A stretch of 64,000 nt of DNA from an uncultured Candidatus Saccharibacteria bacterium (GTDB taxonomy: Bacteria > Patescibacteriota > Doudnabacteria > UBA920), in contig CAYZEI010000001.1 in the NCBI GenBank assembly GCA_964477745.1, positions 64,393 to 128,392 on the forward strand, given 5' to 3'. The notes beneath the pieces were generated by a model that saw nothing but the letters and a program-made list of their open reading frames with translations, searched no databases and was not told where the DNA came from. Positions 19,464-63,361 of the stretch are shown piece by piece. Position 1 is the first letter of the stretch. Every line of letters starts with the position of its first letter. The position numbers and the translations under genes are program-made.

Positions 19464-21410
19464 ATGAATTCCGACACTAAACTAAAATCTAAAGCTTCCG
19501 AGTTCCCAAAGCTACCTGGTGTGTACCAGTTTATAAGCGCTAGCGGGGAAGTTCTTTACGTGGGTAAAGCCAAAAATTTGCGCGTGCGAGTTAAGCAATA
19601 TTTTGGTCACGATGATAGCCGTCCCCAAATCCCTTTTTTAATGGCCGAAGCAACCAACGTTACCTATACGGTAGTAGACAGCGAATTGGAAAGCGCATTT
19701 TTAGAAAACACGTTAATTAAACAACATCATCCGCGGTTTAATATTGACCTAAAAGACGACAAAAATTACGCCTTTATAAAAATTGACTTCTCAACCGAAA
19801 TCCCCCAAATCACTTACACTCGTTCTGTCGACCCGCCTATAAGCTATAAGCTAGCTCCTAAAAGCTTGTTCTTCGGTCCCTACACCGCAGCCTATAAAAT
19901 TCGCAACACCTTAAACTTGGTGCGAAAAATTTTTTCCTTCTGTGCCAATACCAAAGTCGGTAGTCGGCCTTGTTTTTATTACCACATGCATCGCTGTCCC
20001 GGTGTTTGCGTGGGGAAAATTAGTTTGACGGAGTACCGGGAGCACCTGGAAAAAATTGCCAAATTCTTACAGGGCGACACCGCCGGCGTATATAAAAAAA
20101 TCAAGGCGGAAATGCAAAAATCCGCGAATCATAAACGTTTTGAGACCGCAGCTCGTTTGCGTGACCAACTTAAAGCCTTGGAACTACTAAATGAAAAACA
20201 AAATGTCATTTTAGCGAAAAAAGTTGACTGGGATATTATTTCACTGTCGACAGAAAGCGGCTTTTCTTGCGTAAATTTATTTAAGATCCGGGGGGGGAAA
20301 TTATTTGATAAAGAAAATTTTATCTACGAACTTCCAACTTCAGAACAAGAAACAATTAGCACTACAGAAATCTACGGGGGAAAAATTATGCAACGGTTTG
20401 TTGAACAGTATTATCAAGAAACCAGCTTTGCCCCAAAAATTATTTATACCCAAATAAAACTATTAAACGAAAAAATTCTGGAACAAATAATTAAATCCCG
20501 ATTTCATAAAACAATAAAAGTTATTTTGCCACAAAAAGGCAAGTCCCTAAGTTTAATAAAACTGGGGGGTATGAATGCAAACGAATTTTTAAAAACCTGG
20601 CTAACGGACAAGGCAGGTAATTTAGATAAAATTAACCAAAGTCTAGAACAATTAAAGCAGACTTTAAATTTACCTAGCCTGCCAAACCGCATTGAGTGTT
20701 ATGATATTTCCAATATTCAGGGGACCAACCCGGTCGGTAGTATGGTGGTATTTTCCGCCAAAGGCGGATCCGCCTCCGGCGGAAAAAATTTTGGATTTCA
20801 AAAATCTGAATACCGGAAATTTAAAATTCAGGGGAAAAATACGCCCGATGATTTTGCCATGATGAAAGAGATGCTGTCTCGTCGACTCGCGAGAAGCATC
20901 GGCGACAAAACCAAAGTCCAAATTTCCCGCCCGCAGTCGCCTGAAGCTCCAGCTGATGGCGGGCAGGCCAATAACAAAACCTGGCCCATTCCTGACCTCA
21001 TAGTCATCGATGGCGGAAAAGGTCAACTCAATGCTGCCCTGTCAGTCCTTCGCGCTATCCGCTATCCGTTATCCGCTATTCCAGTTATTGGACTCGCGAA
21101 GAGGCTTGAAGAAATCTTTTTACCTAACCAAGAGGAGCCAATTATTTTGGGTCACGACCAACCGGCACTCCAGTTGCTCCAACGCCTGCGTGATGAAACC
21201 CATCGTTTTGGCATTACCTTCCACCGCCAGCTCAGAAGTAAACAAGCTGTTAAATCTGCACTCGACGATATCCCCGGAGTGGGCCCAAAAACAAAAAAAC
21301 TCTTAAAAACCAAATTTGGCACAGTGGCACAAATAAAAAAAACCCCTCTTGCCGACCTGTCGGCAATTGTGGGCGAAAAATTGGCGAAAATTATTCAACA
21401 AGGACTATAA
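19464..21410 (+). CDS. uvrC: Excinuclease ABC subunit C (carries two in-frame palindromic insertions)
   Basis: GIY-YIG N-terminus (VYQFISASGEVLYVGKAKNLRVRV), UvrBC-interaction and RNaseH-like/HhH C-terminus. Confidence 0.95.
   Translation: MNSDTKLKSKASEFPKLPGVYQFISASGEVLYVGKAKNLRVRVKQYFGHDDSRPQIPFLMAEATNVTYTVVDSELESAFLENTLIKQHHPRFNIDLKDDKNYAFIKIDFSTEIPQITYTRSVDPPISYKLAPKSLFFGPYTAAYKIRNTLNLVRKIFSFCANTKVGSRPCFYYHMHRCPGVCVGKISLTEYREHLEKIAKFLQGDTAGVYKKIKAEMQKSANHKRFETAARLRDQLKALELLNEKQNVILAKKVDWDIISLSTESGFSCVNLFKIRGGKLFDKENFIYELPTSEQETISTTEIYGGKIMQRFVEQYYQETSFAPKIIYTQIKLLNEKILEQIIKSRFHKTIKVILPQKGKSLSLIKLGGMNANEFLKTWLTDKAGNLDKINQSLEQLKQTLNLPSLPNRIECYDISNIQGTNPVGSMVVFSAKGGSASGGKNFGFQKSEYRKFKIQGKNTPDDFAMMKEMLSRRLARSIGDKTKVQISRPQSPEAPADGGQANNKTWPIPDLIVIDGGKGQLNAALSVLRAIRYPLSAIPVIGLAKRLEEIFLPNQEEPIILGHDQPALQLLQRLRDETHRFGITFHRQLRSKQAVKSALDDIPGVGPKTKKLLKTKFGTVAQIKKTPLADLSAIVGEKLAKIIQQGL
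20757..20792. repeat. In-frame palindromic element type B, copy 1 (GCCAAAGGCGGATCCGCCTCCGGCGGAAAAAAT) inside uvrC
   Basis: Near-identical to 62755..62794 in tsaD; encodes AKGGSASGGKN insertion. Confidence 0.7.
20926..20968. repeat. In-frame palindromic element type A, copy 1 inside uvrC
   Basis: 41/43 identical to 49364..49406 (which lies in a minus-strand gene); encodes SRPQSPEAPADGGQA. Confidence 0.7.
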
Positions 21411-21563
21411 ACCTTAAGTCTAAAAAGTCAGAAAACCAAAAACCAAAAAATTCCGACTTCCGGCATTCCGATTCTCCGAGTTGCCGGCACAATTGACACC
21501 ACCAGCCATTTTCTTGTATAATGGGCAAGCAATTTACTTCATAATCAACCATTTAAAAAATAT

Positions 21564-21788
21564 ATGTTTTCTGGACCAATCTTCAAGTTTCTCAACATTT
21601 TAGTGATGATTTTGCTGATTATTGTTATTGCCTTGCAAAATAAATCATCCGGCTTGTCTACAGTTTTTGGCGGAGCCGGTAATATTGTCCAAACCAGACG
21701 AGGCTTTGAAAAATGGCTATTTTACGCCACAATCGCTTTAGGAATTCTTTTTGTTTTAATTAACATCGGCTTCTTGTTTAAGTCATAA
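21564..21788 (+). CDS. secG: Preprotein translocase subunit SecG
   Basis: Two TM helices with LLQ..KS.GLS..FGG loop typical of SecG. Confidence 0.7.
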   Translation: MFSGPIFKFLNILVMILLIIVIALQNKSSGLSTVFGGAGNIVQTRRGFEKWLFYATIALGILFVLINIGFLFKS

Positions 21789-21877
21789 TAATCCAAATAT
21801 ACGAATTTTATCCGAATGACCCGAAACCCTTTTAGGAACATTCGGATAAACATTTAAAGCATTAGGATTATACTGTA

Positions 21878-23632: not shown

Positions 23633-23832
23633 TACTACAGTGGGGGTACTACACCTGCCCGCCATGCCTTACCTGACTAGTAGACTAACCTTTGTTAAAA
23701 AATAGACTCTAAAAAAATTAACACTGATTTTCCAAGCAGGCGTTGGCAGGCGGGGAAGCCTACAGAATAATCCCAATTTCTTAAATCGATATAACTTTAA
23801 TTTGGTTTGAAAATATTCTATACTAACAACAC

Positions 23833-28586: not shown

Positions 28587-30041
28587 CTATTTTATTTCAT
28601 TTATATACCCGACGACTTCGTCGGTTTTTTGTTTTAATAGTTCAGCGGAGTCGGCTTCCAAATTTATACGTAAAAGGCTCTGAGTGTTGGAGCTACGGAC
28701 ATTAAACCGCCATGAGGGATAGCTAAAACTATAACCGTCGGTTGCGTCTATTCCCGCATCTTTATATTTTTCTTTTAAACTCTCCAGCACATTCGGATTT
28801 GTAAACTCAAAATTTATTTCCTCACTAATATAAAACTGCTCGCGGAATGGTTTTAAAATTTCAGAGAAAGTTTTTATAACCTCTCCCTGACCCTCCCCAT
28901 GAATTGGGGAGGGAATCTGAGTGGATAGTATTTCCAATACTGCTATAAACGGAAACAATCCATTGTCCAAATAAAAATTATCTTTAAAATAATAATGACC
29001 GGAGGTCTCATTGCCGAAAACCGCATCTTCTTTAGCCATACGTTCTTTTATAAACGAATGTCCGGCTTTGGTCATTATGGAAATTCCGCCGTTTTTTTCA
29101 ATAGTGGAATCTATTACCCGCACAACTCTAGTGTCGTGCAAAATTTTCGCACCCGGATGTTTTTGCAAATAGTACTCGGCTAGTAGCGCGTTAATATAGG
29201 CTGGAGTTACAAAAACACCGTTTTCGTCAAAAAAGAAACAACGATCCGCATCCCCGTCCCAAGCCACGCCTAAATCCGGTTTTAATTTTTTTATGGCCTC
29301 AATAGTTTCTCCGCGATTACTCGGCAACAACGGGTCGGAAGGGCCTTTAGGAAAATTCCCGTCTAGGTTTGGGTTAACTATTTCCAAAAATTCTATTGGC
29401 AACCTTTTCTTTAATTCATCTATTGCCTGCGTGGCCATACCAAAATTTGTATTGGCCACAATCTTTAAAGGTTTGATTTTAGAAATATTAAAAGATTTAA
29501 ACACATGGTCAAAATATTCCCGTTTGATATCTTGTTTCGTTACTGTCCCCCCGTTAGGCCCTGAGCCTGTCGAAGGGTTATTTCCTGCTTTTGGGTTTTC
29601 TGTAGTGTCACTTGCCACTTGCCACTTGCCACTGGTTACCAAATCTCTAATTTGGTAAATGCCCGAGTCCCCGGAAATCGGCGCCCCTTTTTCCCGCACT
29701 AACTTGAGCCCGCCAAACTCTTTTGGGTTGTGACTTGCCGTTATTTGCACTCCGCCGGCTACCGGTAAAGTAGCGGCCGCAAAATACAACTGGTCAGTAG
29801 AAGCTAAGCCTATGTCTATTACATTCACCCCGGCATCGGTTAAGGCATTAATGACCGCTTCACTAAACTCTTCTCCAGAAAGCCTCATGTCGTGCCCTAC
29901 AACTATCTTTGATCCCTTATCTTTTATTTCTAACAACTGCACATAGGCCTGGGCAATTTTATACACCAACTCAGCATTAATTTGCGTCGGATAAATTCCG
30001 CGAATGTCGTATGCTTTAAATATGGATGGATCTATGGTCAT
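28587..30041 (-). CDS. Phosphoglucomutase/phosphomannomutase family protein
   Basis: Active-site TASHNP loop, four-domain phosphohexomutase length. Confidence 0.85.
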   Translation of the reverse strand: MTIDPSIFKAYDIRGIYPTQINAELVYKIAQAYVQLLEIKDKGSKIVVGHDMRLSGEEFSEAVINALTDAGVNVIDIGLASTDQLYFAAATLPVAGGVQITASHNPKEFGGLKLVREKGAPISGDSGIYQIRDLVTSGKWQVASDTTENPKAGNNPSTGSGPNGGTVTKQDIKREYFDHVFKSFNISKIKPLKIVANTNFGMATQAIDELKKRLPIEFLEIVNPNLDGNFPKGPSDPLLPSNRGETIEAIKKLKPDLGVAWDGDADRCFFFDENGVFVTPAYINALLAEYYLQKHPGAKILHDTRVVRVIDSTIEKNGGISIMTKAGHSFIKERMAKEDAVFGNETSGHYYFKDNFYLDNGLFPFIAVLEILSTQIPSPIHGEGQGEVIKTFSEILKPFREQFYISEEINFEFTNPNVLESLKEKYKDAGIDATDGYSFSYPSWRFNVRSSNTQSLLRINLEADSAELLKQKTDEVVGYINEIK

Positions 30042-35823: not shown

Positions 35824-36384
35824 ATGGATATTTCAGACATCAAACTCGGTGTTATTCTGATGTATAACAATGAACCGTGGCAAATTATCTGGTCGAACCG
35901 CATGCGCACCGCCCAGAGAAAACCGGTTATGCAAACCAAACTTCGCAACGTAATCACCGGCAAAGTTATTGAATACTCATTCAAGTTCGGAGAAAAAGTT
36001 GATGAAGCCGACGTGACCCGCGAAAAAGCAACCTTTATGTATGCGGACGAAGGCGGCACTCACTTTATGAACCAGGAAACTTTTGAAACCATTGATATGG
36101 TTAAAGAGTCCACTGCCGAACAAGAAGCGTTTTTAAAAGAAGGCTTTGAAGTTTCTATTATGCGCTTTAACGGCAATCCTGTTTCCATTGAACTGCCGAT
36201 TAAAGTAGATTTAAAAGTAGTGGAAGCTCCCCCGGATACCAAAGGCAACAGCGGTGGCAACGTAACCAAGCCGGTAAAAATGGAAACCGGTTTGCAAGTA
36301 GATGCACCAATGTTCATTAAAGAAGGTGACACGCTAAGAATAGATACCCGCACCGGTGAATACGTGGAAAGAGCGAGTCAGTAG
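35824..36384 (+). CDS. efp: Elongation factor P
   Basis: Three-domain EF-P length and motifs. Confidence 0.9.
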   Translation: MDISDIKLGVILMYNNEPWQIIWSNRMRTAQRKPVMQTKLRNVITGKVIEYSFKFGEKVDEADVTREKATFMYADEGGTHFMNQETFETIDMVKESTAEQEAFLKEGFEVSIMRFNGNPVSIELPIKVDLKVVEAPPDTKGNSGGNVTKPVKMETGLQVDAPMFIKEGDTLRIDTRTGEYVERASQ

Positions 36385-36420
36385 AATAGTAGATAGTATT
36401 TAGCATATAGTAGATAGAAA

Positions 36421-36467
36421 AACACCACTTCGATACGTCCACGTATCGAAGTGGTGTTTTGTTTTGG
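36421..36467 (+). terminator. Terminator after efp
   Basis: AACACCACTTCGATACG-loop-CGTATCGAAGTGGTGTT + T-tract. Confidence 0.65.
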
Positions 36468-37781: not shown

Positions 37782-37867
37782 AATGAAGTAATTATATCAA
37801 AACACACTGTCCTTACAAAGGACAGTGTGTTTTCCTATTTACTATATGCTATCTACTAAATGCTAAT

Positions 37868-40261
37868 CTATTGTAATCTCACATCTCCATAAGTCATGGG
37901 AGACAAACGAGGTAAGGCTAAATCGTACAAATTAGCCGAGACAATAAAGCCGGCTTGGCCAGCGTTGTTTAAGAAGGTGTTCCAATCCGGAACCGGAATT
38001 AAACCTTGCTCGTGCACCATGTAAACGGCTACACCGCTCTTTACCCAAGCGCCCCATGGGTGACTGGAATAGTTTGTGCGAATAGCATAACCGGAATCAA
38101 CTAAACCGGAATTACCCACTTCGGTCACATTAGAAAATTTATAACCTAACCCGGTAAACACACCGGCGGAGACAAATCCTGTTTTGGTATTTTTATAAAC
38201 AATATATACCGTACCATTTTCGGAAATTAATTGACCGTTGGCATAAGTGCTGGCTCCCAACACGCCGGGATACGTAAGTCCCCCGCCGTTAGAATAACCA
38301 CTCACTGTCACATATACGCTAACACAGGCACTGTAACCACCGCTCTGGCAAATAGACAAGGTGGTACTTCCATATTGCCGACCATAAATGCTTAAAGCGT
38401 TGCCGGAAAGGGAGGCCGTCGCTACACCGGAATTGCTGTTACTGGAAATATAATAACTTCCGCTTCCGTATACTGTAACATTTACATTTTGATTAATACC
38501 AACTGTGACGCTGGGCTGCGACACGGACAAATTGCCACCGGAAGAACCCCCGCCAACTGTAACATACAGCGTACTGCAATAGCTCAAAGAAGAATGACAC
38601 ACGCTAATGCTGGTGGAACCATTTTGGTAAGCATACAAGTTCAGCACTGTGCCGGAAATGCTGGCACTGGCTATATTGGAATTGCTGTTACTGGAAATAT
38701 AATAAGAGGTATTGTTGTAATACGGATAAACAGCTGCATATGCACTGCTGTTAATGGATACTGCTAAACTTTGACCAACATATAAATTCGGGTTGGCCGG
38801 GCTAAACCACAAGTTAGTATTAGAGCCAAGTACGGAACCGGTGACGGTAACATACAAAGTGGCACAGCTACTAACATTATTCTGACACACGCTAATGCTG
38901 GTGGAACCGCTGGCTAAACCGTTTAAATAAAGTGAGCTACCGGAAATACTGGCTGTGGCCACATTTGGGTTGCCGTTAGAAGAAATATAATAGCTATTAT
39001 TATAGTTATAATTATTGTTATTATAAATCGTTACTGTCTGACTTTGTCCCGCGGTTAAACTAACATTGGAAGTGGTAAAATAAATATTCCCGTAACCGCC
39101 GGTTCCGCTTCCGGAAACCGTGACATAAATATATGCGCACTGCGTGGACGAGCTAATCGCACAAACATAAATAGTGCTACTGCCGGCGCTGTTTGCGTAA
39201 AGATTTATTTTATTTACATCCAAGGAAGAAGTTACAACCGACGGACTGCTGTTGGAAGAAATATAAACCGCCGGGGCATTGTACGCGGTAACGGTTAAAC
39301 TTTGACCGACAGTCATCGAGACGCTGGTTTGGGACAAAGACAAACTACCGTAACTGCTACCGGAAACTGTAACATACAAAGTGGCACAATTGGAGTAACT
39401 GCTTTGACAAACACTAATACTGGTGCTTCCACTGACCAATCCGCTCACATACAAAGAACTGCCCGACACATAAGCCGAAGCAACGCTAGAGTTAGAATTA
39501 CTGGAAATATAATAACTCCCGGAGGAATATCCGCTGTTGTTATAAATAGAGACATTAGAATTTTGTCCCGCGGTAAGCGTTAACGAAGATGGAGAAAAAT
39601 AAATATTTCCGCCATAATTACTACCTCCGCTAACCGTTACATACAAATAGGAGCAAGTAGACCCGGTTGAACAAACGGAAATTGTTGCGCTTCCGGAAGC
39701 AAGACCATAAACATTTATTGTGCTACCGGAAATGCTGGCGCTGGCTACACTGGAGTTACTATTGGAAGCAATATAATAACTACCGCTATAAATATAGCTA
39801 CCAATGGAAACGTAGGAAGAAGCACTTTGCCCCACACTTACAGATAAACTGGATGGGCTAATAGTTAGCCCGCCAACACTACATCCGTAGTATCCGCATC
39901 CACCTGTTCCGCTTGAACCCGGATAAATTGAAATGGTAGACGATTGCTGACCGCCAACTGTGACATACAGCTGAACTTGGCTGGAACTATAATCCGAAGG
40001 CATGCTCACAACTTGAGTAAAATATCCACTACCATCGGTTTGGCCAATATTGTTGACCGTGGTCCACAGGGTGCTGGATTGTCGGTAAGACAAATTTACT
40101 TGGCTAAAAGTTGCCGCATTGGAAACGGTTATTTGGACGTTGTCATTTCCACCCTGATAGTTAGCGGAAAGAGTCGGGGAATAGGCTAATGCTGGTCCGG
40201 CAATACTTAACAAACCCGCAACAAATCCCCCTAAAATAAGGCTTTTTATGTATTTAGTCAT
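37868..40261 (-). CDS. Large Ser/Thr/Gly-rich cell-surface protein with ~6 Ig-like (Big_2-like) tandem repeats
   Basis: Signal peptide MTKYIKSLILGGFVAGLLSIAGPALA; repeated YISSNSNSSVASA...SISVC...CATLYVTVSG units. Confidence 0.7.
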   Translation of the reverse strand: MTKYIKSLILGGFVAGLLSIAGPALAYSPTLSANYQGGNDNVQITVSNAATFSQVNLSYRQSSTLWTTVNNIGQTDGSGYFTQVVSMPSDYSSSQVQLYVTVGGQQSSTISIYPGSSGTGGCGYYGCSVGGLTISPSSLSVSVGQSASSYVSIGSYIYSGSYYIASNSNSSVASASISGSTINVYGLASGSATISVCSTGSTCSYLYVTVSGGSNYGGNIYFSPSSLTLTAGQNSNVSIYNNSGYSSGSYYISSNSNSSVASAYVSGSSLYVSGLVSGSTSISVCQSSYSNCATLYVTVSGSSYGSLSLSQTSVSMTVGQSLTVTAYNAPAVYISSNSSPSVVTSSLDVNKINLYANSAGSSTIYVCAISSSTQCAYIYVTVSGSGTGGYGNIYFTTSNVSLTAGQSQTVTIYNNNNYNYNNSYYISSNGNPNVATASISGSSLYLNGLASGSTSISVCQNNVSSCATLYVTVTGSVLGSNTNLWFSPANPNLYVGQSLAVSINSSAYAAVYPYYNNTSYYISSNSNSNIASASISGTVLNLYAYQNGSTSISVCHSSLSYCSTLYVTVGGGSSGGNLSVSQPSVTVGINQNVNVTVYGSGSYYISSNSNSGVATASLSGNALSIYGRQYGSTTLSICQSGGYSACVSVYVTVSGYSNGGGLTYPGVLGASTYANGQLISENGTVYIVYKNTKTGFVSAGVFTGLGYKFSNVTEVGNSGLVDSGYAIRTNYSSHPWGAWVKSGVAVYMVHEQGLIPVPDWNTFLNNAGQAGFIVSANLYDLALPRLSPMTYGDVRLQ

Positions 40262-41507: not shown

Positions 41508-41580
41508 AGGTTAGTGGTTAGCATTTAGCATACAGCAGATAGACACAATACAATTATAGCATTTAACAAACTAATATTTG
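41500..41580. repeat. Direct duplication copy A (includes start of 40977..41507 gene and its upstream region)
   Basis: ~75 nt near-identical to 42415..42500. Confidence 0.75.
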
Positions 41581-42418: not shown

Positions 42419-42500
42419 AATATTATAATGTCATGCATGGGTTAGTAGTTAGCATTTAGTATTTAGCATACAGCAGATAGACACAATACAATTATAGCAT
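42415..42500. repeat. Direct duplication copy B upstream of VanW-like gene
   Basis: Contains ATGCATGACATTATAAT identical to first codons of 40977..41507 gene. Confidence 0.75.
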
Positions 42501-42571
42501 TAAGACAGCATTGCTTTGCAATACTGTCTTAAATTCGGATTATTCGGATGTAATTCGTAGTATTCGGATCG

Positions 42572-45619: not shown

Positions 45620-45643
45620 TTGTATTATCCTATCTACTATATA

Positions 45644-46576
45644 CTAAATGCTTTCTGCTAAATACTTCTCCACATCCAATGCGGCCATACAGCCCATACC
45701 GGCTGCGCTTATGGCTTGGCGGTAACGCGGATCATTTACGTCCCCGGCAACAAACACGCCGGCAATATTGGTGTGGGTGTTGTTTTGTACTTTTATATAA
45801 CCCTTAGCGTCCGTCTCCACGCCGGCCGCGGCAAAAATTTTCGTTGCCGGGGTGTGGCCAATGGCCAAAAATATTCCTTGTAAAGACAAAACAGATTCCT
45901 CGCCTGACTGATTATCTTTAATCTTTAATCCTTCAACTGTGTTCTCGCCCACCACATCCAGCACTGCCACATTGGTCACAAAAGAAATTTTTGGGTTATC
46001 CTGCGCCCGCTTTAACATTATTTTTGAAGCTTTAAATTCCGCCCGACGATGGACAATATAAACTTTATTGGCAAAGCGGGTTAAAAAGTTGGCTTCTTCC
46101 ATAGCTGAGTCTCCCCCGCCAATTACGGCCACATCTTTTCCTTTAAAGAAAAACCCGTCGCAAGTGGCGCAAGCCGAAACTCCCTTACCCCTAAGGCGCT
46201 GTTCTCCGGGCAGGCCAAGCCAATTAGCTTCCGCGCCTGTGGCAATTATTACACTCTTGGCCAAATATTCACCTTTACCGGTTTTTACTTTAAACGGTTG
46301 CGCAGAAAAATCCACGCTCTCCACGTTCTCGGGCAAGATTGTGGTTTCAAACCGCTCTGCTTGCTTGGTCATATTATCCATTAGTTCCGGGCCCATAACA
46401 CCGTTAACAAACCCCGGAAAATTTTCCACTTCCGTAGTATCCATTAATTGTCCACCCGGCTTTAGTCCGGCTAAAACTAGTGGTTTTAATTCCGCTCGCC
46501 CGGCATAAATAGCCGCAGTTAACCCCGCAGGGCCGGAACCGATTATGATTACATTTTTGATTTCTTGATTGGTCAT
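45644..46576 (-). CDS. trxB: Thioredoxin reductase
   Basis: GSGPAG FAD motif, CATC redox centre, GGGDSA NADPH motif. Confidence 0.9.
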   Translation of the reverse strand: MTNQEIKNVIIIGSGPAGLTAAIYAGRAELKPLVLAGLKPGGQLMDTTEVENFPGFVNGVMGPELMDNMTKQAERFETTILPENVESVDFSAQPFKVKTGKGEYLAKSVIIATGAEANWLGLPGEQRLRGKGVSACATCDGFFFKGKDVAVIGGGDSAMEEANFLTRFANKVYIVHRRAEFKASKIMLKRAQDNPKISFVTNVAVLDVVGENTVEGLKIKDNQSGEESVLSLQGIFLAIGHTPATKIFAAAGVETDAKGYIKVQNNTHTNIAGVFVAGDVNDPRYRQAISAAGMGCMAALDVEKYLAESI

Positions 46577-46859: not shown

Positions 46860-46950
46860 ATTACTTTGCTGTTAAATCTTAAATCCTCAATCTTAAATCT
46901 TAAATTTCCTACCCCCCTCCTGGGGGTCTTAAGTAACTATACTTTTTAAC

Positions 46951-47342: not shown

Positions 47343-47492
47343 TTCCCCGCGCCGATTTCTCGGTAGCGGATGTTTAGTGCAAACTTTTCCAAAAGTTCCT
47401 GATGCAGAATTTGCAAACACCGCCCTTTATTCTAAAGGGCGGTGTTTCAGTTCCTATCTACTAAATGCTATATGCTATCTCCTAGTTACCAG

Positions 47493-48615: not shown

Positions 48616-49542
48616 TTACTCTATCCCCAACTCCTGTAATTCCTCCAGCACCTGCCTGGTTGCTGCCATCCAATTAGGATTTTTAGGCTGAACATAAACA
48701 CCATTCATTTGTTCCAGTGTCCAATTACTGTAGCGTCTTTCCAATAACCGGTTAAAATCTTTTACCCAATCCCCTAAGGTGGCATATTTATGCCAGTATG
48801 GATGCCCGGGTTTAACCCCAATGTTGCTACAATTATTATCTACACAATTTCGGCCAAAAGTACTTTCCGCAAACGAAATGGCCAAAATTAATTTCCAATG
48901 TTTTTGTTCGGCAATAATGTCCGAGGCTTCCACAAACGGCGTTTTTTTAGCGGTTAAATAGGCGCGTAATTTTTCTTTCCGCAAAGCCATTCTTTCGGCT
49001 TCTTTTAACTGTTTGTTTTGTTCGGCAATGGAATTTAAATAATTTTCCAACTGACCAATGGTCATATTATACAACACGTCATTGGAGACATTGCTAATCG
49101 GGCCTAAGTTGCCAGTGTTTTGCATTGGGATTGAACCGGCCTGGGTTTGCTCAAAATCTTGGGCTGATGTTTTCTGAGTATTTAATGCTGTCCACGCGCC
49201 CCCGCCAAAGGCCACAATTAGCGCCACTATAATGGCGTACACTGGTACAGCTTTTTTTAAACTATTAAATTTTTTAAACTCAATTATAACCAGAGCTAGG
49301 TTATTTTTAAAAGCATAAAAGATGCCTGTAATTTTTTGTTGAGCCCTTTGCTGGATGCTATATGCCCCGCCTGCAGTCGCCTGAGGCTCCAGCTGATGGC
49401 GGGCAGGTATATGCTTGTTCCCAAGTTTCGGTGGCACTAAAAATTCGGTATAAAAAACTTCCACAGTAGGCTGTATTTTAACTTTAACAATGGGCTTTAA
49501 AGTCTTTGGCTTGGTTTTATTTATCCCGTCTAAGTTTCTCAT
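48616..49542 (-). CDS. Membrane-anchored putative peptidoglycan glucosaminidase-like protein; carries in-frame palindromic element
   Basis: C-terminal ...LAISFAESTFGRN...NIGVKPG resembles glucosaminidase domain; element A copy at 49364..49406. Confidence 0.4.
   Translation of the reverse strand: MRNLDGINKTKPKTLKPIVKVKIQPTVEVFYTEFLVPPKLGNKHIPARHQLEPQATAGGAYSIQQRAQQKITGIFYAFKNNLALVIIEFKKFNSLKKAVPVYAIIVALIVAFGGGAWTALNTQKTSAQDFEQTQAGSIPMQNTGNLGPISNVSNDVLYNMTIGQLENYLNSIAEQNKQLKEAERMALRKEKLRAYLTAKKTPFVEASDIIAEQKHWKLILAISFAESTFGRNCVDNNCSNIGVKPGHPYWHKYATLGDWVKDFNRLLERRYSNWTLEQMNGVYVQPKNPNWMAATRQVLEELQELGIE
49364..49406. repeat. In-frame palindromic element type A, copy 2
   Basis: 41/43 identity with 20926..20968; read on opposite strand yet remains in-frame. 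Confidence 0.7.
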
Positions 49543-52914: not shown

Positions 52915-52990
52915 ACCGGCGACTGGACAATTCGCGCGAATTGTCCAGTCGCCAAAATACGTAAGTGATGGGATATGTCCCCATTCACAT
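52915..52990 (+). repeat. Direct repeat copy 1 containing 36-nt perfect palindrome GGCGACTGGACAATTCGCGCGAATTGTCCAGTCGCC (52918..52953)
   Basis: Seen directly; partner at 53330..53412. Confidence 0.8.
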
Positions 52991-53066: not shown

Positions 53067-53282
53067 ATGAAGCAAATGACATGTGCCCAAATGGGCGGAC
53101 CTGCAGAGTGTAGCTTTACGCTCTCCGGCAACACTGCCGAAGAAATGGTTAAAAACGGCTTTGACCACGTAATGCAAGCACACCCTGAAATGGGACAAAA
53201 GATTCAAAGCAACAGTCCGGAAGAAAATGAAAAATGGATGGCTGGCTTTCGAGCCACATTCGACGCCATCCCGGAAATGTAA
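53067..53282 (+). CDS. Small DUF1059-like protein (MKQMTCAQMGGPAEC...)
   Basis: AGGAG RBS; extended -10 TGGTAAAAT upstream; terminator 53296..53325. Confidence 0.5.
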   Translation: MKQMTCAQMGGPAECSFTLSGNTAEEMVKNGFDHVMQAHPEMGQKIQSNSPEENEKWMAGFRATFDAIPEM

Positions 53283-53329: not shown

Positions 53330-53412
53330 ATCAGCGCTGGACAATTCGCGCGAATTGTCCAGTCGCCAAAATACGTAATTAAATATGAGGTTAATGGGCC
53401 ATGTCCCCATTT
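53330..53412 (+). repeat. Direct repeat copy 2 with 34-nt near-perfect palindrome (53334..53367)
   Basis: Shares palindrome + AAAATACGTAA...ATGTCCCCATT with copy 1. Confidence 0.8.
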
Positions 53413-59195: not shown

Positions 59196-59223
59196 TTGAC
59201 AAATAGCTAATTTTTGCTATAAT
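59196..59223 (+). promoter_or_regulatory. Consensus sigma70 promoter TTGACA-N16-TATAAT
   Basis: Perfect hexamers upstream of small secreted-protein gene. Confidence 0.55.
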
Positions 59224-59294
59224 TATGCGGTAAAAATAGTCCCTGGTCGAGGACTAAATACTTATTTATAAACTAACCAAATAAATATATTCAT

Positions 59295-59528: not shown

Positions 59529-59666
59529 ATTGGTTAGCTAAGCTTAAGACTTTTATACGTAAAAGTCTTGACTTATAAGCCAATTTTTGTTACAATTTGT
59601 TACTGGTTGCTTACCTAAATCTAGTTTAAAAACCAGGGAAGCCCCTACTAATACGTAGTAGTTAAA

Positions 59667-59695
59667 CCCCGCTTCGGCGGGGTTTTTTAATTATT
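59667..59695 (+). terminator. Terminator CCCCGC-TTCG-GCGGGG + T-tract
   Basis: GC hairpin with tetraloop then TTTTTT. Confidence 0.6.
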
Positions 59696-59711
59696 TTGAT
59701 ATAATACCTGT

Positions 59712-60302
59712 ATGAATATAACTGCCGCAAAATTTGTAAAAGGCATTGTGGGTCCGGACGAATCTTTGGACGACGGCATTCCGCAAATTGCTTTTATCGG
59801 CCGGTCCAATGTGGGCAAGTCCAGCGTAATTAACACCCTGGCTAACCGCAGGGATTTGGCGCGCACCAGCTCCATGCCCGGACGAACTCAGCAAATTAAT
59901 TTATTTTTACTTTCCGCTAAAGGCGGAAGCACAATGAGCTCTTTTTACTTGGTTGACTTGCCCGGCTATGGTTTTGCCAAAGCTTCCAAAGACACCCAAG
60001 AACAAATCCAAAAATTAATTTACTGGTATTTTTTTGAATCTGACTACCAGCAAAAAAAAGTGGTCCTAATTATAGACGCCAACATTGGCGCCACCAACAG
60101 CGACATGGAAATGCTTTACAGCTTAAAAGATAGGAATAAGGATGTGGTAATTGTAGCCAACAAAATCGACAAAATGAAAAAGAATTCCCTGGTGGCTCAA
60201 ATTAAAGAAATTCAAACCTCCGTCGGCAACTGCAAGGTAATCCCCTACTCCGCGGAAAAACGCATCGGTATAAACGAGTTGGCAAACGAAATTTCTAAGT
60301 AG
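59712..60302 (+). CDS. engB: GTP-binding protein EngB/YihA
   Basis: GRSNVGKSS G1 motif, DLPGYG G3. Confidence 0.85.
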   Translation: MNITAAKFVKGIVGPDESLDDGIPQIAFIGRSNVGKSSVINTLANRRDLARTSSMPGRTQQINLFLLSAKGGSTMSSFYLVDLPGYGFAKASKDTQEQIQKLIYWYFFESDYQQKKVVLIIDANIGATNSDMEMLYSLKDRNKDVVIVANKIDKMKKNSLVAQIKEIQTSVGNCKVIPYSAEKRIGINELANEISK

Positions 60303-60399
60303 CCTAAAGTTTTACTATTTACAAGTATTTATCCCGCTCTTTGGAAACAAAGAGCGGGATTTTTGCATTGTTAAAAGTTTGGGCATACAATATAGGTAT

Positions 60400-61254
60400 A
60401 TGAATAAAAAGTATCCAAAAATTGGTTTAGCTTTAAGTGGTGGCGCAGCCTTAGGAATTGCCCATGTCGGCGCCCTGCAAGCCTTGGCTGATCATAATGT
60501 CCCCATTAGCTACCTGTCAGGGACCAGTGCCGGGGCAGTGGTTGCCGCAGGTTTGGCCTTTGGTCTGACCCCGGAGCAAATGTCCGAACGGGCCAAAAAC
60601 TTAAGCTGGTACAAACTCTCCAATATTTCCTACTCCCGCATGGGTTTAATTACCACTCAAGGCGTGGGTAATATGATGAAAGAAATTTTAGGCGATGTAA
60701 ACATTGAAGACGCCAAAATCCCGTTGGCAATTGTCGCCACCAATATTGAAAATGGTGAGGCAATAATTTTTAAAAAAGGAAGCGTGGCAGAAGCAGTAAT
60801 GGCCAGCGTGTGCATTCCCGGATTATTTGTTCCCACCGAGTATCAAGGAAAAAAATTAGTTGACGGCGGTTTGGTAAAAAATCTCCCGCTTTCGTTACTG
60901 GATGAAATGGGTGCAGAATTCACCATTGGTGTGAACTTAGCCCGTTGGCGAACATATAAAAAACCAAATAACTTATTGGATGTTATGATTAGCGCCCTGG
61001 ATATTTTAACCCATAAGCAAACGAATTTGGATGCCTTACAGGCGGATATGATTATTGAACCCCACCTGGAACAATTTTCCGCTTCGGACTTTAAAAAAGC
61101 CGCGGAACTAATTACCGAAGGCTACCGGGCAACAATCTTAGCCTTGCCGGCCTTAACCGATTCAATTTCCCAAACCAATAAAACTCAACAACCCGAAACA
61201 AGCCTATGGCAAAAATTCTTATCAATTTTTAAAAGTAAATCTAAAAATATATGA
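60400..61254 (+). CDS. Patatin-like phospholipase
   Basis: GGAALG oxyanion motif and GTSAG nucleophile elbow, DGG catalytic Asp. Confidence 0.8.
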   Translation: MNKKYPKIGLALSGGAALGIAHVGALQALADHNVPISYLSGTSAGAVVAAGLAFGLTPEQMSERAKNLSWYKLSNISYSRMGLITTQGVGNMMKEILGDVNIEDAKIPLAIVATNIENGEAIIFKKGSVAEAVMASVCIPGLFVPTEYQGKKLVDGGLVKNLPLSLLDEMGAEFTIGVNLARWRTYKKPNNLLDVMISALDILTHKQTNLDALQADMIIEPHLEQFSASDFKKAAELITEGYRATILALPALTDSISQTNKTQQPETSLWQKFLSIFKSKSKNI

Positions 61255-61643
61255 CCGGATACATTGCAAACTTAGAAGAAATTACTATAAGCAACACTGA
61301 CTTCCGCAGGGTATTATATACCGGCAAACATAGCCAACTGGTTCTTATGAGCCTAAAACCTAGTGAAGAAATTGGCGCCGAAGTTCACACCCTAGACCAA
61401 TTCTTTCGGTTTGAAAAAGGCGCAGGCAAAGTGGTAATTGACGGAGTAGAACATTTGGTCAAAGACGGTAGCGGGGTAATTGTGCCGGCCGGCGCCAACC
61501 ATAATGTCATAAATACCGGCGATGCGGACTTAAAACTATATACAATTTATTCCCCGGCTGAACATAAAGACGGCACCATTCGCGCTACCAAACAAGAAGC
61601 AATTAATAACGAAGAACATTTTGACGGTGTGGCCACCGAATAA
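61251..61643 (+). CDS. Cupin-domain protein
   Basis: Cupin_2-like G(X)5HXH...-like beta-barrel motifs. Confidence 0.6.
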   Translation: MTGYIANLEEITISNTDFRRVLYTGKHSQLVLMSLKPSEEIGAEVHTLDQFFRFEKGAGKVVIDGVEHLVKDGSGVIVPAGANHNVINTGDADLKLYTIYSPAEHKDGTIRATKQEAINNEEHFDGVATE

Positions 61644-61650
61644 TCTATCT

Positions 61651-62157
61651 ATGAAGAAAACTTTTCAACTAGCTTCACTCATTTTAATTGGAGGGTATTT
61701 AATTTCTTGTGGGGTAACTGCAAGCACTTTCCACTTTATTGATTACACCAATTTAATTTTTCACGAAGCCGGCCATTGGATATTTATGCCCTTTGGGGAA
61801 TTTATAACTTTTGCCGGCGGAAGCCTAAACCAAGTATTAATTCCGCTAATTGTGGCCGGATATTTTTTGTGGCACAGACAAATGGTATCGGCGGCTTTAA
61901 GTTTTATGTGGGCGGGGCAAAGTTTAATTAATGTTTCGGTTTATGCCGCCGACGCCTTAAAAATGCAACTCCCGCTCCTTGGGGGCGACAGCTCCATTCA
62001 TGACTGGAACTGGATGTTAATTTATTTAGGACAGCTTAGACATACCGCCGGAATTGCCCAAACCATAAATGTATTGGGTTGGATTTGTTTGCTTGCTGGA
62101 CTACTGGGAGGTTTGTACTTTATACTTACGGAAACCGAAACTATAGATTATGTCTAA
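61651..62157 (+). CDS. Membrane protein, unknown function
   Basis: Hydrophobicity; terminator 62195..62225. Confidence 0.45.
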   Translation: MKKTFQLASLILIGGYLISCGVTASTFHFIDYTNLIFHEAGHWIFMPFGEFITFAGGSLNQVLIPLIVAGYFLWHRQMVSAALSFMWAGQSLINVSVYAADALKMQLPLLGGDSSIHDWNWMLIYLGQLRHTAGIAQTINVLGWICLLAGLLGGLYFILTETETIDYV

Positions 62158-62245
62158 ACTTAATTCCAAAAAAATTATACTCGATAAACCCTCTCTGCCC
62201 CGCAAAAAGCGGGGCATCTCTCCCATAAAGGGAGAGAGTAAAGTG

Positions 62246-63361
62246 ATGATTCTCGCTATTGAAACCAGCTGCGACGAAACTGCCGCAGCGGTTTTAGAAG
62301 TAACCACCGGCGACAAATGGCCGGAAATTACCACCTTGTCGTCCATAGTAAATTCCCAAATTAAATTACACAGTAAAATGGGTGGCGTAGTACCGGAAGT
62401 GGCTGCCCGGGCTCACGTAAAAAACATCCGCCCGGTGGTCACTGCAGCCCTAAAAGCTAGCTCCTATAAGCTAGAAGCTATAGACTACATCGCCGTCACC
62501 GCCGGCCCCGGTCTTATTCCTTCACTAATTGTTGGCGTGGAGTTTGCTAAAGCTTTGTCCTTGGCCACCGGCAAACCGCTAATCCCGGTTAACCATATGC
62601 TTGGACACCTTTATTCTCCCTTTGGGAGAATAAAATCCAAAATCCAAATTTCCAATGACAAAAAAAATCCAAAATCTGAAATCATAAATCATAAATCTTT
62701 TTTTCCTAATATTTCTTTGATAGTTTCCGGAGGTCATACAATTCTGGTATTAATGCCCGCCAGAGGCGGGTCCGCCTCTGGCGGAGAAAATTCCAAGGAA
62801 TATATAGTACTTGGCCAAACCGTAGACGACGCGGCCGGTGAAGCATTTGATAAAGTAGCCAAGCTCTTAGGTCTCCCCTACCCAGGTGGTCCGGAAGTTT
62901 CGCGCCTGGCTTTAAAAGGAAATCCTACCGCCATAAATTTTCCTCGGCCAATGATCCATGCAAAAAATTATGACTTTTCTTTCTCCGGACTCAAAACCGC
63001 AGTTCTATATTATGTAAAAGATAAAGGATTAAAGATTAAAGATGAAGGTTTTACTGCGGATGTCTGCGCCAGCTTCCAAGCCGCGGCCGTGGACGTCTTG
63101 GTACAAAAAACCATGCGTGCAGTAAAACAATTCAATGCCAAATCCGTATCTCTCTCCGGCGGTGTCGCCGCCAATGCAGTCCTGCGTGATGCATTAAATC
63201 TTCAATCTAAAAACCTAAATCTTAAATTTTTTGTCCCTGACAAAAATTTATGCACCGACAATGCGGAAATGATTGGCATTGCTTCTGCCTTTATGCTACA
63301 AAACGGTTTTAAGCCTGTCAGTTATAAAAAAGCCAAAGCCGACTCCAATTTACATTTATAA
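62246..63361 (+). CDS. tsaD: tRNA N6-threonylcarbamoyladenosine synthase TsaD (carries in-frame palindromic element)
   Basis: MILAIETSCDETAAAV, HMLGHLY, GGVAAN motifs; start after GGGAGAG RBS. Confidence 0.85.
   Translation: MILAIETSCDETAAAVLEVTTGDKWPEITTLSSIVNSQIKLHSKMGGVVPEVAARAHVKNIRPVVTAALKASSYKLEAIDYIAVTAGPGLIPSLIVGVEFAKALSLATGKPLIPVNHMLGHLYSPFGRIKSKIQISNDKKNPKSEIINHKSFFPNISLIVSGGHTILVLMPARGGSASGGENSKEYIVLGQTVDDAAGEAFDKVAKLLGLPYPGGPEVSRLALKGNPTAINFPRPMIHAKNYDFSFSGLKTAVLYYVKDKGLKIKDEGFTADVCASFQAAAVDVLVQKTMRAVKQFNAKSVSLSGGVAANAVLRDALNLQSKNLNLKFFVPDKNLCTDNAEMIGIASAFMLQNGFKPVSYKKAKADSNLHL
62755..62794. repeat. In-frame palindromic element type B, copy 2 inside tsaD
   Basis: Near-identical to 20757..20792; encodes ARGGSASGGEN insertion absent from canonical TsaD. 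Confidence 0.7.

What the first reader, a model, noticed from the sequence alone, without database searches (positions are those of the whole stretch)
20757..62794. Two families of palindromic repeat elements inserted in-frame in core genes (uvrC twice, tsaD, glucosaminidase-like gene)
Element A is ~43 nt (CCCGCC[C/T]GCAGTCGCCTGA[A/G]GCTCCAGCTGATGGCGGGCAGG). It occurs at 20926..20968 inside uvrC on the plus strand and at 49364..49406 inside a minus-strand gene, so it is translated in both orientations without a stop. Element B is ~36 nt (GCCA[A/G]AGGCGG[A/G]TCCGCCTC[C/T]GGCGGA[A/G]AAAAT). It occurs at 20757..20792 in uvrC and at 62755..62794 in tsaD, and encodes GGSASGG. Both segments are extra relative to canonical UvrC and TsaD as I remember them. 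This matches the behaviour of Rickettsia palindromic elements (selfish palindromes tolerated in-frame in proteins), which I am not aware of having been described outside a few lineages. Degenerate element-A terminus fragments also appear at 23661..23672 and 23744..23772, upstream of tRNA-Leu.
Basis: partly seen in the sequence, partly recalled or inferred. Interest (0 to 1): 0.78.

Follow-up and report, generated by a model that had tools for sequence, protein, structure and literature searches.

The report
Tiny hairpin elements inside essential genes
Two families of very small GC-rich mobile DNA elements (30 and 42 bases) have inserted, without breaking the reading frame, into disordered loops of essential genes of an ultra-small groundwater bacterium, and the 30-base double hairpin also sits inside genes of bacteria from at least eight other phyla.

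Summary
Both repeat pairs exist, with coordinates off by 2-4 nt, and none are expected by chance.

The window comes from a Candidatus Doudnabacteria (Patescibacteria/CPR) genome.

**Element B**
- B is exactly 30 nt: two adjacent 15-nt hairpins (TCCGCCnnnGGCGGA x2).
- In uvrC it is a clean insertion with no target duplication at GTATTT|AAAAAT. Three related genomes have the empty site.
- The tsaD copy (10 aa) is shared only with a sister genome.
- A single degenerate unit sits in engB.
By my tally these span about 53 Patescibacteria, 20 Omnitrophota, 12 PVC, Chloroflexota, Ignavibacteriota and others.
- 58 sites lie deep inside ORFs, and 47 of these are read as SAxGGSAxGG.
- Hairpin stems covary; the loops do not pair.

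**Element A**
- A is a 42-nt core with 10-nt imperfect terminal inverted repeats and in-register 7-nt flanking direct repeats. I found 15 distinct sites.
- It is a deletion derivative of a 104-nt form at 23654-23757.
- One filled versus empty comparison of the long form shows a 7-bp target duplication.

All in-gene copies fall in segments that AlphaFold models with low confidence.

The mobilising enzyme is unknown.

The parts
20754..20783 (.). Element B, full 30-nt double hairpin (TCCGCCAAAGGCGGA + TCCGCCTCCGGCGGA) in uvrC. Encodes SAKGGSASGG, UvrC residues 431-440.
   Evidence: Searches give the sequence. One search shows a clean 30-nt gap at GTATTT|AAAAAT in L122, L123 and L001; the insert is absent from the other 69 closest UvrC homologues displayed. 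DNA fold z -3.6; pLDDT below 50 at residues 435-441, after strand 424-431.
20926..20967 (+). Element A, short form (42-nt core), in the hypervariable UvrC linker. Encodes (S)RPQSPEAPADGGQ(A).
   Evidence: absent from the L122 and L123 orthologues, which carry other sequence there. L001 carries a 35/42-identical copy at the same linker; pLDDT below 50 at residues 483-504.
23654..23757 (+). Element A, long form (104 nt, inverted relative to the two short copies). It shares the first 12 nt (CCTGCCCGCCAT) and about 20 nt at the other end with the short form. It lies between the SBP_bac_5 gene and tRNA-Leu, and is flanked by TACTACA (23647-23653) and GCCTACA (23758-23764).
   Evidence: a homologous copy (83% identical) is in L123 at a different locus, and each locus is empty in the other genome.
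49366..49407 (+). Element A, short form, inside the minus-strand 308-aa membrane-protein gene. Read on the minus strand as PARHQLEPQATAGG. Flanked by exact 7-nt direct repeats TATATGC at 49359-49365 and 49408-49414.
   Evidence: the N-terminus MRNLDGI is conserved in homologues, so the element lies inside the CDS. It is absent from P0243 and from more distant homologues. One search gives the DNA alignment with L154 (filled, with a nested 39-nt insert) and L156 (empty).
59913..59927 (.). Single 15-nt B unit (TCCGCTAAAGGCGGA, one stem mismatch) in engB. Encodes SAKGG at a beta-hairpin turn.
   Evidence: 1 mismatch, 0.02 matches expected by chance; the sister genome has the perfect unit at the same site; 7 extra residues relative to the solved EngB structures 1sul and 3pqc.
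62756..62785 (.). Element B, full 30-nt double hairpin (CCCGCCAGAGGCGGG + TCCGCCTCTGGCGGA) in tsaD. Encodes PARGGSASGG, TsaD residues about 205-214.
   Evidence: a 10-aa insert present only in P0121 and P0122 among the 60 TsaD sequences displayed; the sister-genome copy is identical, 30/30; fold z -5.0; pLDDT below 50 at residues 206-215, essentially the insert, between strands 196-202 and 219-222.
19464..21410 (+). Host gene uvrC (648 aa).
   Evidence: Pfam UvrC domains in an identical database protein.
48616..49542 (-). Host gene: conserved Patescibacteria hypothetical membrane protein (308 aa). No Pfam family.
59712..60302 (+). Host gene engB/ysxC GTPase (196 aa).
62150..63361 (+). Host gene tsaD (403 aa).

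Best explanation
Both families are non-autonomous, hairpin-bearing selfish DNA elements that have inserted into the chromosome of a Ca. Doudnabacteria (Patescibacteria) bacterium. They are simply translated where they land in genes.

**Why they survive inside essential genes**
- Their lengths are multiples of three: B is 30 nt, or 15 nt as a single unit; the A core is 42 nt; a nested relative is 39 nt.
- They lack stop codons in 6/6 frames (B) or 5/6 frames (A).
- Selection has kept only copies in disordered loops and linkers, and for B almost only the Gly/Ser/Ala reading frame.

[quoted passage not shown] It exists as a 104-nt long form and a 42-nt internal-deletion form. It shows a 7-bp target duplication with an A/T-rich preferred target (about TAAWTYC). 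I infer that a transposase supplied in trans, making 7-bp staggered cuts, moves it.

**Family B is a dyad of two 15-nt hairpins.** It is inserted flush, with no target duplication, mostly between a T-run and an A-run (TTT|AAA, read as Phe|Lys). Hairpin formation matters for its persistence. Its presence in many phyla implies horizontal spread or great age.

**Shown versus inferred.** Shown: insertion status, structure, target, frame bias and distribution. Inferred: the mode of mobilisation. For B I favour a hairpin-recognising mechanism without target duplication (HUH/Y1-type, like IS200/IS605 or RAYT enzymes), but with low confidence.
For: **Insertions relative to orthologues**
- Protein and DNA alignments.
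- Each long-form locus of A is empty in the other genome.
- A 7-bp duplication in L123: TGTAGTT|element|TGTAGTG, against a single TGTAGTG in the window and in L122.
- In-register 7-nt flanking repeats at 15 A sites: mean 4.47/7, against 3.01 for permuted pairings (maximum 4.07 in 1000 permutations). The signal is lost when the boundaries are shifted.

**Family B**
- 127 sites in 120 loci from many phyla.
- The closing pair of unit 1 covaries: T-A 84 times, C-G 31 times, 8 exceptions. The two loops are complementary only 21/123 times, against 17 expected.
- Compensatory stem changes occur in degenerate units: CCCGCT..AGCGGG and CCCTCC..GGAGGG.
- 58/127 sites lie deep in ORFs. Of these, 47 are in the SAxGGSAxGG frame. 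Phe precedes in 23/47 and Lys follows in 23/47.
- Hosts outside CPR include DnaE, an E2 acyltransferase linker, HemB and GH57.
- Independent B insertions occur at about four other positions among the 120 listed UvrC homologues, plus P0197 in TsaD. A also occurs in another genome's TsaD, P0172.

**Location and composition**
- The inserts coincide with pLDDT below 50 in AlphaFold models.
- The genome is 41% G+C, while the B core is 79-86% and A is 69-71%.

**A candidate enzyme nearby.** A RAYT-like Y1 transposase gene is present in the sister genome.
Against: - No transposase is encoded in the 64-kb window.
- No autonomous partner carrying A's termini was found in 1.18 Mb of fetched loci.
- The only Y1 gene found is flanked by a different motif (GGGGACATGACCCGT), not by A or B. 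It is not linked to any other B site.
- Only 2.5 B copies and 3 A copies are visible in 64 kb. The source genome beyond the window could not be read, so the genome-wide copy number is unknown.
- A 42-nt core plus a 7-bp duplication is 49 nt, which is not a multiple of three. In-frame A copies therefore need an extra compensating change, which is inferred and not shown.
- The conservation of B stems across phyla is partly imposed by the search pattern.
Confidence: 0.75

Rival explanations
1. B spreads without any dedicated transposase. It is copied from an existing copy by template switching or microhomology-mediated repair, using the T-run and A-run that flank almost every copy as the homology.
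For: There is no target duplication at the uvrC site, and the empty site is TTT|AAA. T is found at position -3 in 98/123 sites and A at +30 in 101/123. No linked transposase was found. B is essentially absent from phages and plasmids.
Against: The tsaD site is ATG|GAA, with no T-run. Three-nucleotide homologies are very short. The model does not by itself explain transfer between phyla. It also does not explain why hairpin stems are kept by compensatory change.
Confidence: 0.15
2. The hairpins are host-functional DNA or RNA signals (protein binding sites, mRNA structure, an uptake-type signal). They are maintained by selection, rather than being selfish insertions that are merely tolerated.
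For: Stem covariation and compensatory changes indicate that structure is under constraint. The same sequence occurs across phyla. The orthologous tsaD copy is identical 30/30 in the sister genome, while 3 of about 25 upstream bases differ.
Against: Copies are present or absent between close relatives, in unrelated genes and in intergenic DNA. There is no consistent position relative to gene starts or ends. No U-tract follows the hairpins, and the flanks are T-rich 5' and A-rich 3' on both strands. No Rfam family matches. Density is low, about 1 per 25 kb. Constraint on structure is also expected if the hairpin is what the mobilising enzyme recognises.
Confidence: 0.07
3. The similarity reflects protein-level selection for flexible Gly/Ser/Ala (B) or Pro/Ala/Gln (A) loop peptides. 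That is, it is convergent low-complexity sequence.
For: 81% of in-gene B copies use the same frame. The inserts sit in loops.
Against: Identity holds at the DNA level, including synonymous positions, and in a G+C-rich codon choice foreign to a 41% G+C genome. The same DNA occurs in other frames (PPxADPPxAE, RxRRIRxxR), on both strands, and in intergenic DNA. A gives unrelated peptides in uvrC and in the minus-strand gene.
Confidence: 0.02
4. The repeats are an assembly, library or chimera artefact.
For: B is a near-perfect palindrome containing a BamHI site, which is the kind of sequence linkers have.
Against: Identical proteins are recorded from independent sources, NCBI and Logan. Orthologous copies sit in a sister genome from another assembly, with diverged flanks. 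Copies occur in short-read MAGs, a single-cell genome and what appear to be long-read MAGs, from many studies. Reading frames are preserved.
Confidence: 0.01

Closest known systems
Rickettsia palindromic elements (RPEs)
   Same: Selfish repeats inserted in frame into unrelated housekeeping genes. They are translated, and are compatible with the fold because they sit at the surface (PMC10969869, read).
   Different: RPEs are about 100-150 bp and are confined to Rickettsia and relatives. Here the in-gene forms are 15, 30 and 42 nt, and the hosts are Patescibacteria, plus many other phyla for B. Sequence homology to RPEs was not tested.
REP / REPIN elements mobilised by RAYT (Y1/HUH) transposases
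   Same: Short G+C-rich hairpins. B is an inverted doublet of a hairpin unit, like a REPIN. B makes no target duplication. A RAYT-like gene exists in the sister genome.
   Different: REPs are extragenic and carry a GTAG or CGTC tag at one end (PMC3733652, abstract seen). B and short A have no such tag, and about half of their copies are inside genes. The RAYT found here is flanked by a different motif.
Bacterial MITEs (e.g. ERIC, Correia/NEMIS, Coxiella QMITE)
   Same: Family A has terminal inverted repeats, a target duplication, long and short forms, and occasional in-frame gene insertions (PMC5896051).
   Different: A's short form (42 nt) is below the usual MITE size. No parent insertion sequence is known. 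B has no target duplication.
Mitochondrial G+C clusters, double-hairpin elements and repetitive hairpin-forming elements (yeast var1, Allomyces, sponges)
   Same: G+C-rich single or double hairpins in A+T-rich compact genomes. They are found in spacers, in variable rRNA regions and in frame in protein genes, and are not removed from transcripts. Stems are conserved and loops vary (PMC2800124). This is the closest structural analogue of B.
   Different: Those elements are organellar and lineage-specific. B is in free-living or episymbiotic bacteria of many phyla, with the same stem sequence.
IS200/IS605-derived palindrome-associated elements (PATEs)
   Same: Two end hairpins, no inverted terminal repeats in the usual sense, and no target duplication (my own knowledge of the family).
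   Different: PATEs are longer. They insert 3' of a fixed tetra- or pentanucleotide, and their two hairpins share one orientation. B is dyad-symmetric and has only a T-run/A-run preference.

Membership tests
Rickettsia palindromic elements | Length about 100-150 bp, palindromic along the whole element | tested here: not met
   B is 30 nt and short A is 42 nt. Only long A reaches 104 nt, and it is intergenic. A's fold is no better than shuffles.
Rickettsia palindromic elements | In-frame insertion in unrelated ORFs at positions compatible with the fold | tested here: met
Rickettsia palindromic elements | Sequence homology to one of the RPE families | not tested
REP/REPIN-RAYT | GTAG or CGTC tag next to the stem | tested here: not met
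   The flank profile of 123 B sites shows only T-rich and A-rich flanks. Flanks of short A are A/T-rich heptamers. Long A copies are flanked by CTACA on both sides, which is not the REP arrangement.
REP/REPIN-RAYT | Extragenic location | tested here: not met
   58/127 B sites and about half of the A sites lie inside long ORFs.
REP/REPIN-RAYT | Inverted doublet of a hairpin unit | tested here: met
   B consists of a unit plus its reverse complement. There are 132 doublets against 30 singlets in the loci.
REP/REPIN-RAYT | Cognate RAYT gene in the genome, flanked by the same repeats | tested here: inconclusive
   A Y1_Tnp gene is present in the sister genome (L154 6478-7149, L158 1073-1744) but is flanked by a different inverted motif. 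There is none in the window and none in the other loci. The whole source genome was not available.
MITE (transposase-derived) | Terminal inverted repeats | tested here: met
   A has CCYGCCYGCC at both ends, matching 8/10. B as a whole is an inverted repeat.
MITE (transposase-derived) | Target site duplication | tested here: met
   This holds for A only. One filled versus empty comparison shows a 7-bp duplication, and there is an in-register flank signal at 15 sites. It does not hold for B, which is a clean 30-nt insertion with only a weak flank signal, 2.46 against 1.99.
MITE (transposase-derived) | Parent insertion sequence with the same ends | tested here: inconclusive
   No pair of A termini 0.7-4 kb apart enclosing a transposase was found in 1.18 Mb of loci. 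This sample is far too small to exclude one.
Mitochondrial double-hairpin / G+C-cluster elements | Two adjacent G+C-rich hairpins with conserved stems and variable loops, in an A+T-rich genome, tolerated in coding regions | tested here: met
Mitochondrial double-hairpin / G+C-cluster elements | Organellar genome | tested here: not met
   The hosts are bacterial chromosomes.
IS200/IS605-type PATE | Insertion 3' of a fixed short target, with no duplication | tested here: inconclusive
   There is no duplication. The flank preference is symmetric T-run/A-run rather than a one-sided tetranucleotide.

The most novel reading that the evidence does not exclude
Element B would be the smallest horizontally spreading mobile DNA yet seen: a 30-nt dyad of two 15-nt hairpins that crosses phylum boundaries. 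It occurs in Patescibacteria, Omnitrophota, PVC, Chloroflexota, Ignavibacteriota and others. It inserts flush at TTT|AAA without target duplication and is translated as SAxGGSAxGG in the loops of housekeeping proteins.

Linked to this, the genome's abundant period-7 micro-arrays would be footprints or targets of elements that duplicate 7 bp (family A). Slippage of these heptamers would then restore the reading frame after a 49-nt insertion. If so, these streamlined genomes carry a previously unrecognised system of micro-transposition acting inside genes.
Probability: 0.3. Interest if true: 0.85.

Novelty: new variant of a known kind. Interest (0 to 1): 0.7.

Why it matters
- Patescibacteria have genomes of about 1 Mb and are thought to be stripped of non-essential DNA. 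Finding selfish micro-elements inside uvrC, tsaD and engB shows that streamlined genomes still host mobile DNA. It persists by hiding in protein loops.
- This supplies a concrete source for the many lineage-specific inserts and low-complexity loops seen in CPR proteins. The UvrC linker alone carries several different recurrent element-derived peptides across homologues.
- These inserts matter for alignments, marker-gene phylogenies and structure prediction.
- Element B gives a 30-nt sequence tag shared between phyla that live in the same groundwater and sediment habitats. It could serve as a tracer of genetic exchange.
- If B's mobilisation is worked out, it is a candidate for the minimal substrate of a hairpin-recognising recombinase.

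Tried and rejected
- **One long 28-nt hairpin for B: rejected.** The loops are complementary only at the chance rate, and the middle loop position actually avoids Watson-Crick pairing. The unit-level closing pair covaries.
- **Target duplication for B: rejected for the window copies**. Over 125 sites there is only a weak excess of in-register 7-mers, unrelated to genic or intergenic location.
- **Phage or plasmid vehicle: not supported.** There are 2 hits in 2.9 million IMG/VR contigs for B and 0 for A. There is no match in PLSDB plasmids or INPHARED phages.
- **Known RNA family: none.** Rfam at gathering threshold finds only two tRNAs in the window.
- **Transposase in the window: none** in Pfam scans of 27 ORFs.
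- **Autonomous element with A's termini: none found** in the loci.
- **Reading the rest of the source contig: failed.** The exact UvrC product is not on record for position look-up.
- **Literature: no description found** of such elements in Patescibacteria, and no hits to the peptide signatures beyond synthetic linkers. Only open-access text was searched.
- **Metagenome matches for A:** about 12 of the 28 were chance hits in G+C-rich contigs lacking the right half, and were discarded.

Full report
**1. What is in the sequence**

The window has 33-47% G+C, typically about 41%. It encodes typical Patescibacteria genes: type IV pilus proteins, sortase, uvrA/uvrC, RNase J, tsaD, engB, S6/SSB and EF-P. 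The closest named homologues of its proteins are annotated Candidatus Doudnabacteria.

- A is a 42-nt sequence at 20926-20967 and 49366-49407, 40/42 identical.
- The B core is at 20757-20789 and 62759-62791, differing by four transitions.
- Neither pattern occurs in any of 100 shuffles.

**2. Element B is a 30-nt double hairpin inserted flush**

DNA alignment of uvrC with three related genomes (L122, L123, L001) shows one clean 30-nt gap. The empty site is GTATTT|AAAAAT. The filled site is GTATTT-TCCGCCAAAGGCGGATCCGCCTCCGGCGGA-AAAAAT, with no duplicated target.

The element is two 15-nt units, TCCGCCnnnGGCGGA, the second being the inverse of the first. The 10-aa peptide SAKGGSASGG is absent from the other 69 closest UvrC homologues displayed.

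In TsaD the 10-aa insert PARGGSASGG is present only in the window genome and one sister genome among the 60 sequences displayed. The sister's DNA copy is identical, 30/30.

A third, single-unit copy (TCCGCTAAAGGCGGA, 59913-59927) lies in engB. It has one mismatch, with 0.02 matches expected by chance. It is perfect in the sister genome, and it coincides with 7 extra residues at a beta-turn relative to solved EngB structures. A covariance model of B finds no other full copy in the window.

**3. B is widespread**

I scanned one genome per GTDB species with CCGCCNNAGGCGGNTCCGCCTNNGGCGG. This pattern has 23 specified bases, so by my estimate one chance match or fewer is expected.

My tally of the record titles:

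| Group | Loci |
|---|---|
| Patescibacteria (many classes) | 53 |
| Omnitrophota | 20 |
| PVC (Planctomycetota, Kiritimatiellae, Verrucomicrobiota, Lentisphaeria) | 12 |
| MAGs labelled Gammaproteobacteria | 11 |
| Ignavibacteriota/Bacteroidota | 5 |
| Chloroflexota | 4 |
| Desulfotomaculaceae, Firestonebacteria, Deltaproteobacteria, Acidobacteria | 1 each |
| Unclassified | 11 |

These labels come from the depositors. Some small contigs may be mis-binned. However, the hosts include megabase contigs of Ignavibacteriota, a single-cell Omnitrophota genome, and genes that are not Patescibacteria-like, such as hemB.

**4. Structure of B**

The unit-1 closing pair (positions -1 and 13) covaries: T-A in 84 sites and C-G in 31, with 8 exceptions. 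The two 3-nt loops are complementary in only 21/123 sites, against 17 expected. At the middle loop position, Watson-Crick combinations are under-represented. The relevant structure is therefore two side-by-side hairpins, not one long one.

Degenerate units found next to perfect ones show compensatory stem changes: CCCGCT...AGCGGG in L032 and CCCTCC...GGAGGG in L070.

Loops run through the transition series GGA/AGA/GAA/AAA and TCC/TCT/TTC/TTT. The perfect stems of the primary sites were imposed by the search pattern, so stem conservation itself cannot be inferred from them.

**5. Coding context of B**

Of the 127 sites, 58 lie at least 40 codons from either end of a stop-free frame. Of these, 47 (81%) are read as (S/P)AxGG(S/P)AxGG, 6 as PPxADPPxAE and 5 as RxRRIRxxR.

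In the main frame the preceding residue is Phe in 23/47 sites and the following residue is Lys in 23/47. This matches the DNA flank profile, with T at -3 in 98/123 sites and A at +30 in 101/123. It also matches the TTT|AAA empty site in uvrC.

A TTT|AAA target in coding DNA can only occur in two codon phases, because the third contains TAA. This accounts for part of the frame bias.

Host proteins in other phyla include DnaE, the linker after the lipoyl domain of an E2 acyltransferase, GH57, a solute-binding protein, HemB and a laccase-type oxidase.

Among the 120 listed UvrC homologues, B appears independently at about four other positions (P0020/P0021, P0042/P0066, P0030 and probably P0080). 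It also appears in one further TsaD, P0197.

**6. Element A is MITE-like**

A metagenome scan with the left half of A gave 28 loci. Sixteen contain the complete 42-nt element, making 12 distinct sites, all in contigs of 37-46% G+C. The rest were chance matches in G+C-rich contigs. With the two window copies and a copy in another Doudnabacteria-like uvrC (L001, 35/42 identical, same linker), this gives 15 distinct sites.

The 7 nt on either side of the 42-nt core match each other far more often than permuted pairs. The mean is 4.47/7, against 3.01 for permuted pairs (maximum 4.07 in 1000 permutations). The signal disappears if either boundary is moved by one base. Examples:
- TATATGC|A|TATATGC in the window
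- TAAAAGCTATAAGC|A|TAAAAGCTATAAGC in L128
- TAATTTC|A|CAATTTC in L141

The flanks share an A/T-rich consensus of about TAAWTYC.

Five of the six frames are open. About half of the sites are in long ORFs, in several frames and both orientations.

In the 308-aa gene the N-terminus MRNLDGI is conserved among homologues. The element is therefore inside the CDS, in the variable cytoplasmic tail before the membrane helix. It is absent from P0243 (74% identical) and from more distant homologues. The sister genome's copy contains a nested 39-nt palindrome with similar termini.

**7. The long form of A**

Its first 12 nt (CCTGCCCGCCAT) and last roughly 20 nt match the short form read on the opposite strand.

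A copy 83% identical lies in L123 at a different locus, next to uvrA. That locus is empty in the window and in L122, and the window's locus lacks the element in L123. At the L123 insertion the heptamer TGTAGTG, which is single in the empty sites, flanks the element on both sides (TGTAGTT ... TGTAGTG). This is a 7-bp target duplication.

At the window's own locus, L123 has CACTACT-GAA-ACCTACA. This could be an excision footprint or the ancestral state; I cannot tell which.

Small elements with the same termini occur in other Patescibacteria loci (L058, L072, L115, L119).

**8. Position in the proteins**

AlphaFold2 models were built from the homologue alignments.
- TsaD: mean pLDDT 83.7. Confidence falls below 50 at residues 206-215, essentially the B insert, which sits in the turn between strands 196-202 and 219-222.
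- UvrC: mean pLDDT 79.8. Confidence is below 50 at residues 435-441 (B, after strand 424-431) and 483-504 (A, the linker before strand 512-516).

**9. Mechanism**

What is shown: both families are insertions. Both have copies at unrelated loci and in unrelated genomes. A duplicates 7 bp and B duplicates nothing. B's hairpins are structurally constrained. In-gene copies are restricted to loops, and for B mostly to one frame.

What is inferred: mobilisation in trans by enzymes not encoded in the window.

The sister genome encodes a 223-aa Y1/HUH transposase of the RAYT type (PF01797, with HWH and YIxxNP motifs). It lies about 3 kb upstream of the A-containing gene and is flanked by inverted GGGGACATGACCCGT motifs. 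It is absent from the window and from all other loci. It is therefore only a candidate.

A 42-nt core plus 7 bp is 49 nt, which would shift the frame. The in-gene copies sit among period-7 micro-arrays. Gain or loss of one unit changes the frame by one, so I suggest that heptamer slippage restores the frame. This is not shown.

**10. Comparison with known systems**

In-frame insertion of small repeats is known for Rickettsia RPEs (about 150 bp; PMC10969869). It occurs occasionally for ERIC and for Coxiella QMITEs (PMC5896051).

G+C-rich single and double hairpin elements are known in mitochondrial genomes. They occur in spacers, in variable rRNA regions and in protein genes, with conserved stems and variable loops (PMC2800124).

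REPs are defined by GTAG or CGTC tags and an extragenic location (PMC3733652). A and B meet neither criterion.

I found no description of such elements in Patescibacteria, and no description of the B sequence or its peptides. The library covers open-access papers only.

**11. Verdict**

It is a new variant of a known kind of selfish DNA. Two features go beyond the precedent: the very small size of the elements, and B's presence with the same stems in many phyla, mostly inside genes. The main gaps are the genome-wide copy number in the source organism and the identity of the mobilising enzymes.

Noticed in passing
window 3337-3373, 19837-19853, 21432-21449, 29609-29633, 45914-45930, 46889-46905, 62632-62648, 62679-62697, 63027-63043; also 21053-21079 in uvrC and 63194-63227 in tsaD: Perfect tandem repeats of at least 2.5 copies occur only at period 7. 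There are 9 such arrays, against 0.25 in shuffles, and none at periods 5, 6 or 8-13. Each array has its own unit, several lie inside genes, and many units resemble A's preferred flank (TAAATCT-like). The same UvrC loop, after GQL..A, is internally repetitive at 7-aa spacing in most CPR homologues, with a different unit in each genome.
   Followed up: partly
window 52918-52964 and 53332-53378: Two exact copies of a 42-47-nt repeat contain a perfect 32-nt palindrome (CGACTGGACAATTCGCGCGAATTGTCCAGTCG). They bracket a small gene at about 53069-53282. Nearby ATGTCCCC motifs resemble the inverted motifs that flank the Y1 transposase gene in the sister genome.
   Followed up: partly
L154 6478-7149 (also L158 1073-1744), syntenic with window about 53-54 kb: The sister genome carries a 223-aa RAYT-like Y1 transposase (PF01797) flanked by inverted GGGGACATGACCCGT repeats. 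The window genome lacks it at the corresponding place.
   Followed up: partly
L122 about 11195-11280 (uvrC linker of the sister genome): A different palindromic element of about 83 nt (GTCATTGCGAG...TCGCAATGAC) occupies the same UvrC linker where the window has A. Across CPR UvrC homologues this linker carries several recurrent element-like peptides, such as VIARSASDEAIS.., VPIYR.. and PPLLGKEG...
   Followed up: partly
L154 10151-10189: A 39-nt palindrome with termini like A's (..CCCGTCCGC...GCCGGGCGGG..) is nested inside the orthologous A copy of the sister genome. It keeps the reading frame.
   Followed up: partly
window 2956-2993, 36379-36438, 37826-37873, 41510-41563, 42442-42501, 45622-45665, 47451-47489: An A+T-rich intergenic repeat family (TAGTAGATAGTATTTAGCATATAG-like) occurs in both orientations at gene boundaries. 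It is built from heptamer-like units.
   Followed up: no
L004 4485, L009 4588 and 6409, L068 7326 (one Kiritimatiellae MAG): In this genome, B is the centre of a longer repeat with shared flanks (..ATAGGAATTTT-B-ACAATCCGTCTTTGTTGTCATTCCG). B can therefore be a module of larger repeats.
   Followed up: no
L074, L096, L117, L045 (one Omnitrophota MAG, BS750m-G21): B copies are flanked by arrays of heptamers in inverted orientation (CAGGTTT.. B ..AAACCTG), forming long composite palindromes. In Patescibacteria the flanking arrays are direct (L078-L080, L044).
   Followed up: no
L141 about 11100-11170 (reverse strand): Two G+C-rich elements, one ending GCGGGCGGG and then A, are separated by a single heptamer TAATTTC and followed by an array of CAATTTC-like units.
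   Followed up: no
window 62150-62245 versus L158 10001-10290: The TsaD N-terminal extension differs greatly between the two sister genomes (403 aa against 468 aa). The sister's extra segment is rich in PSPKGG and PPFSKKGG-type motifs, which suggests further element-derived sequence.
   Followed up: no
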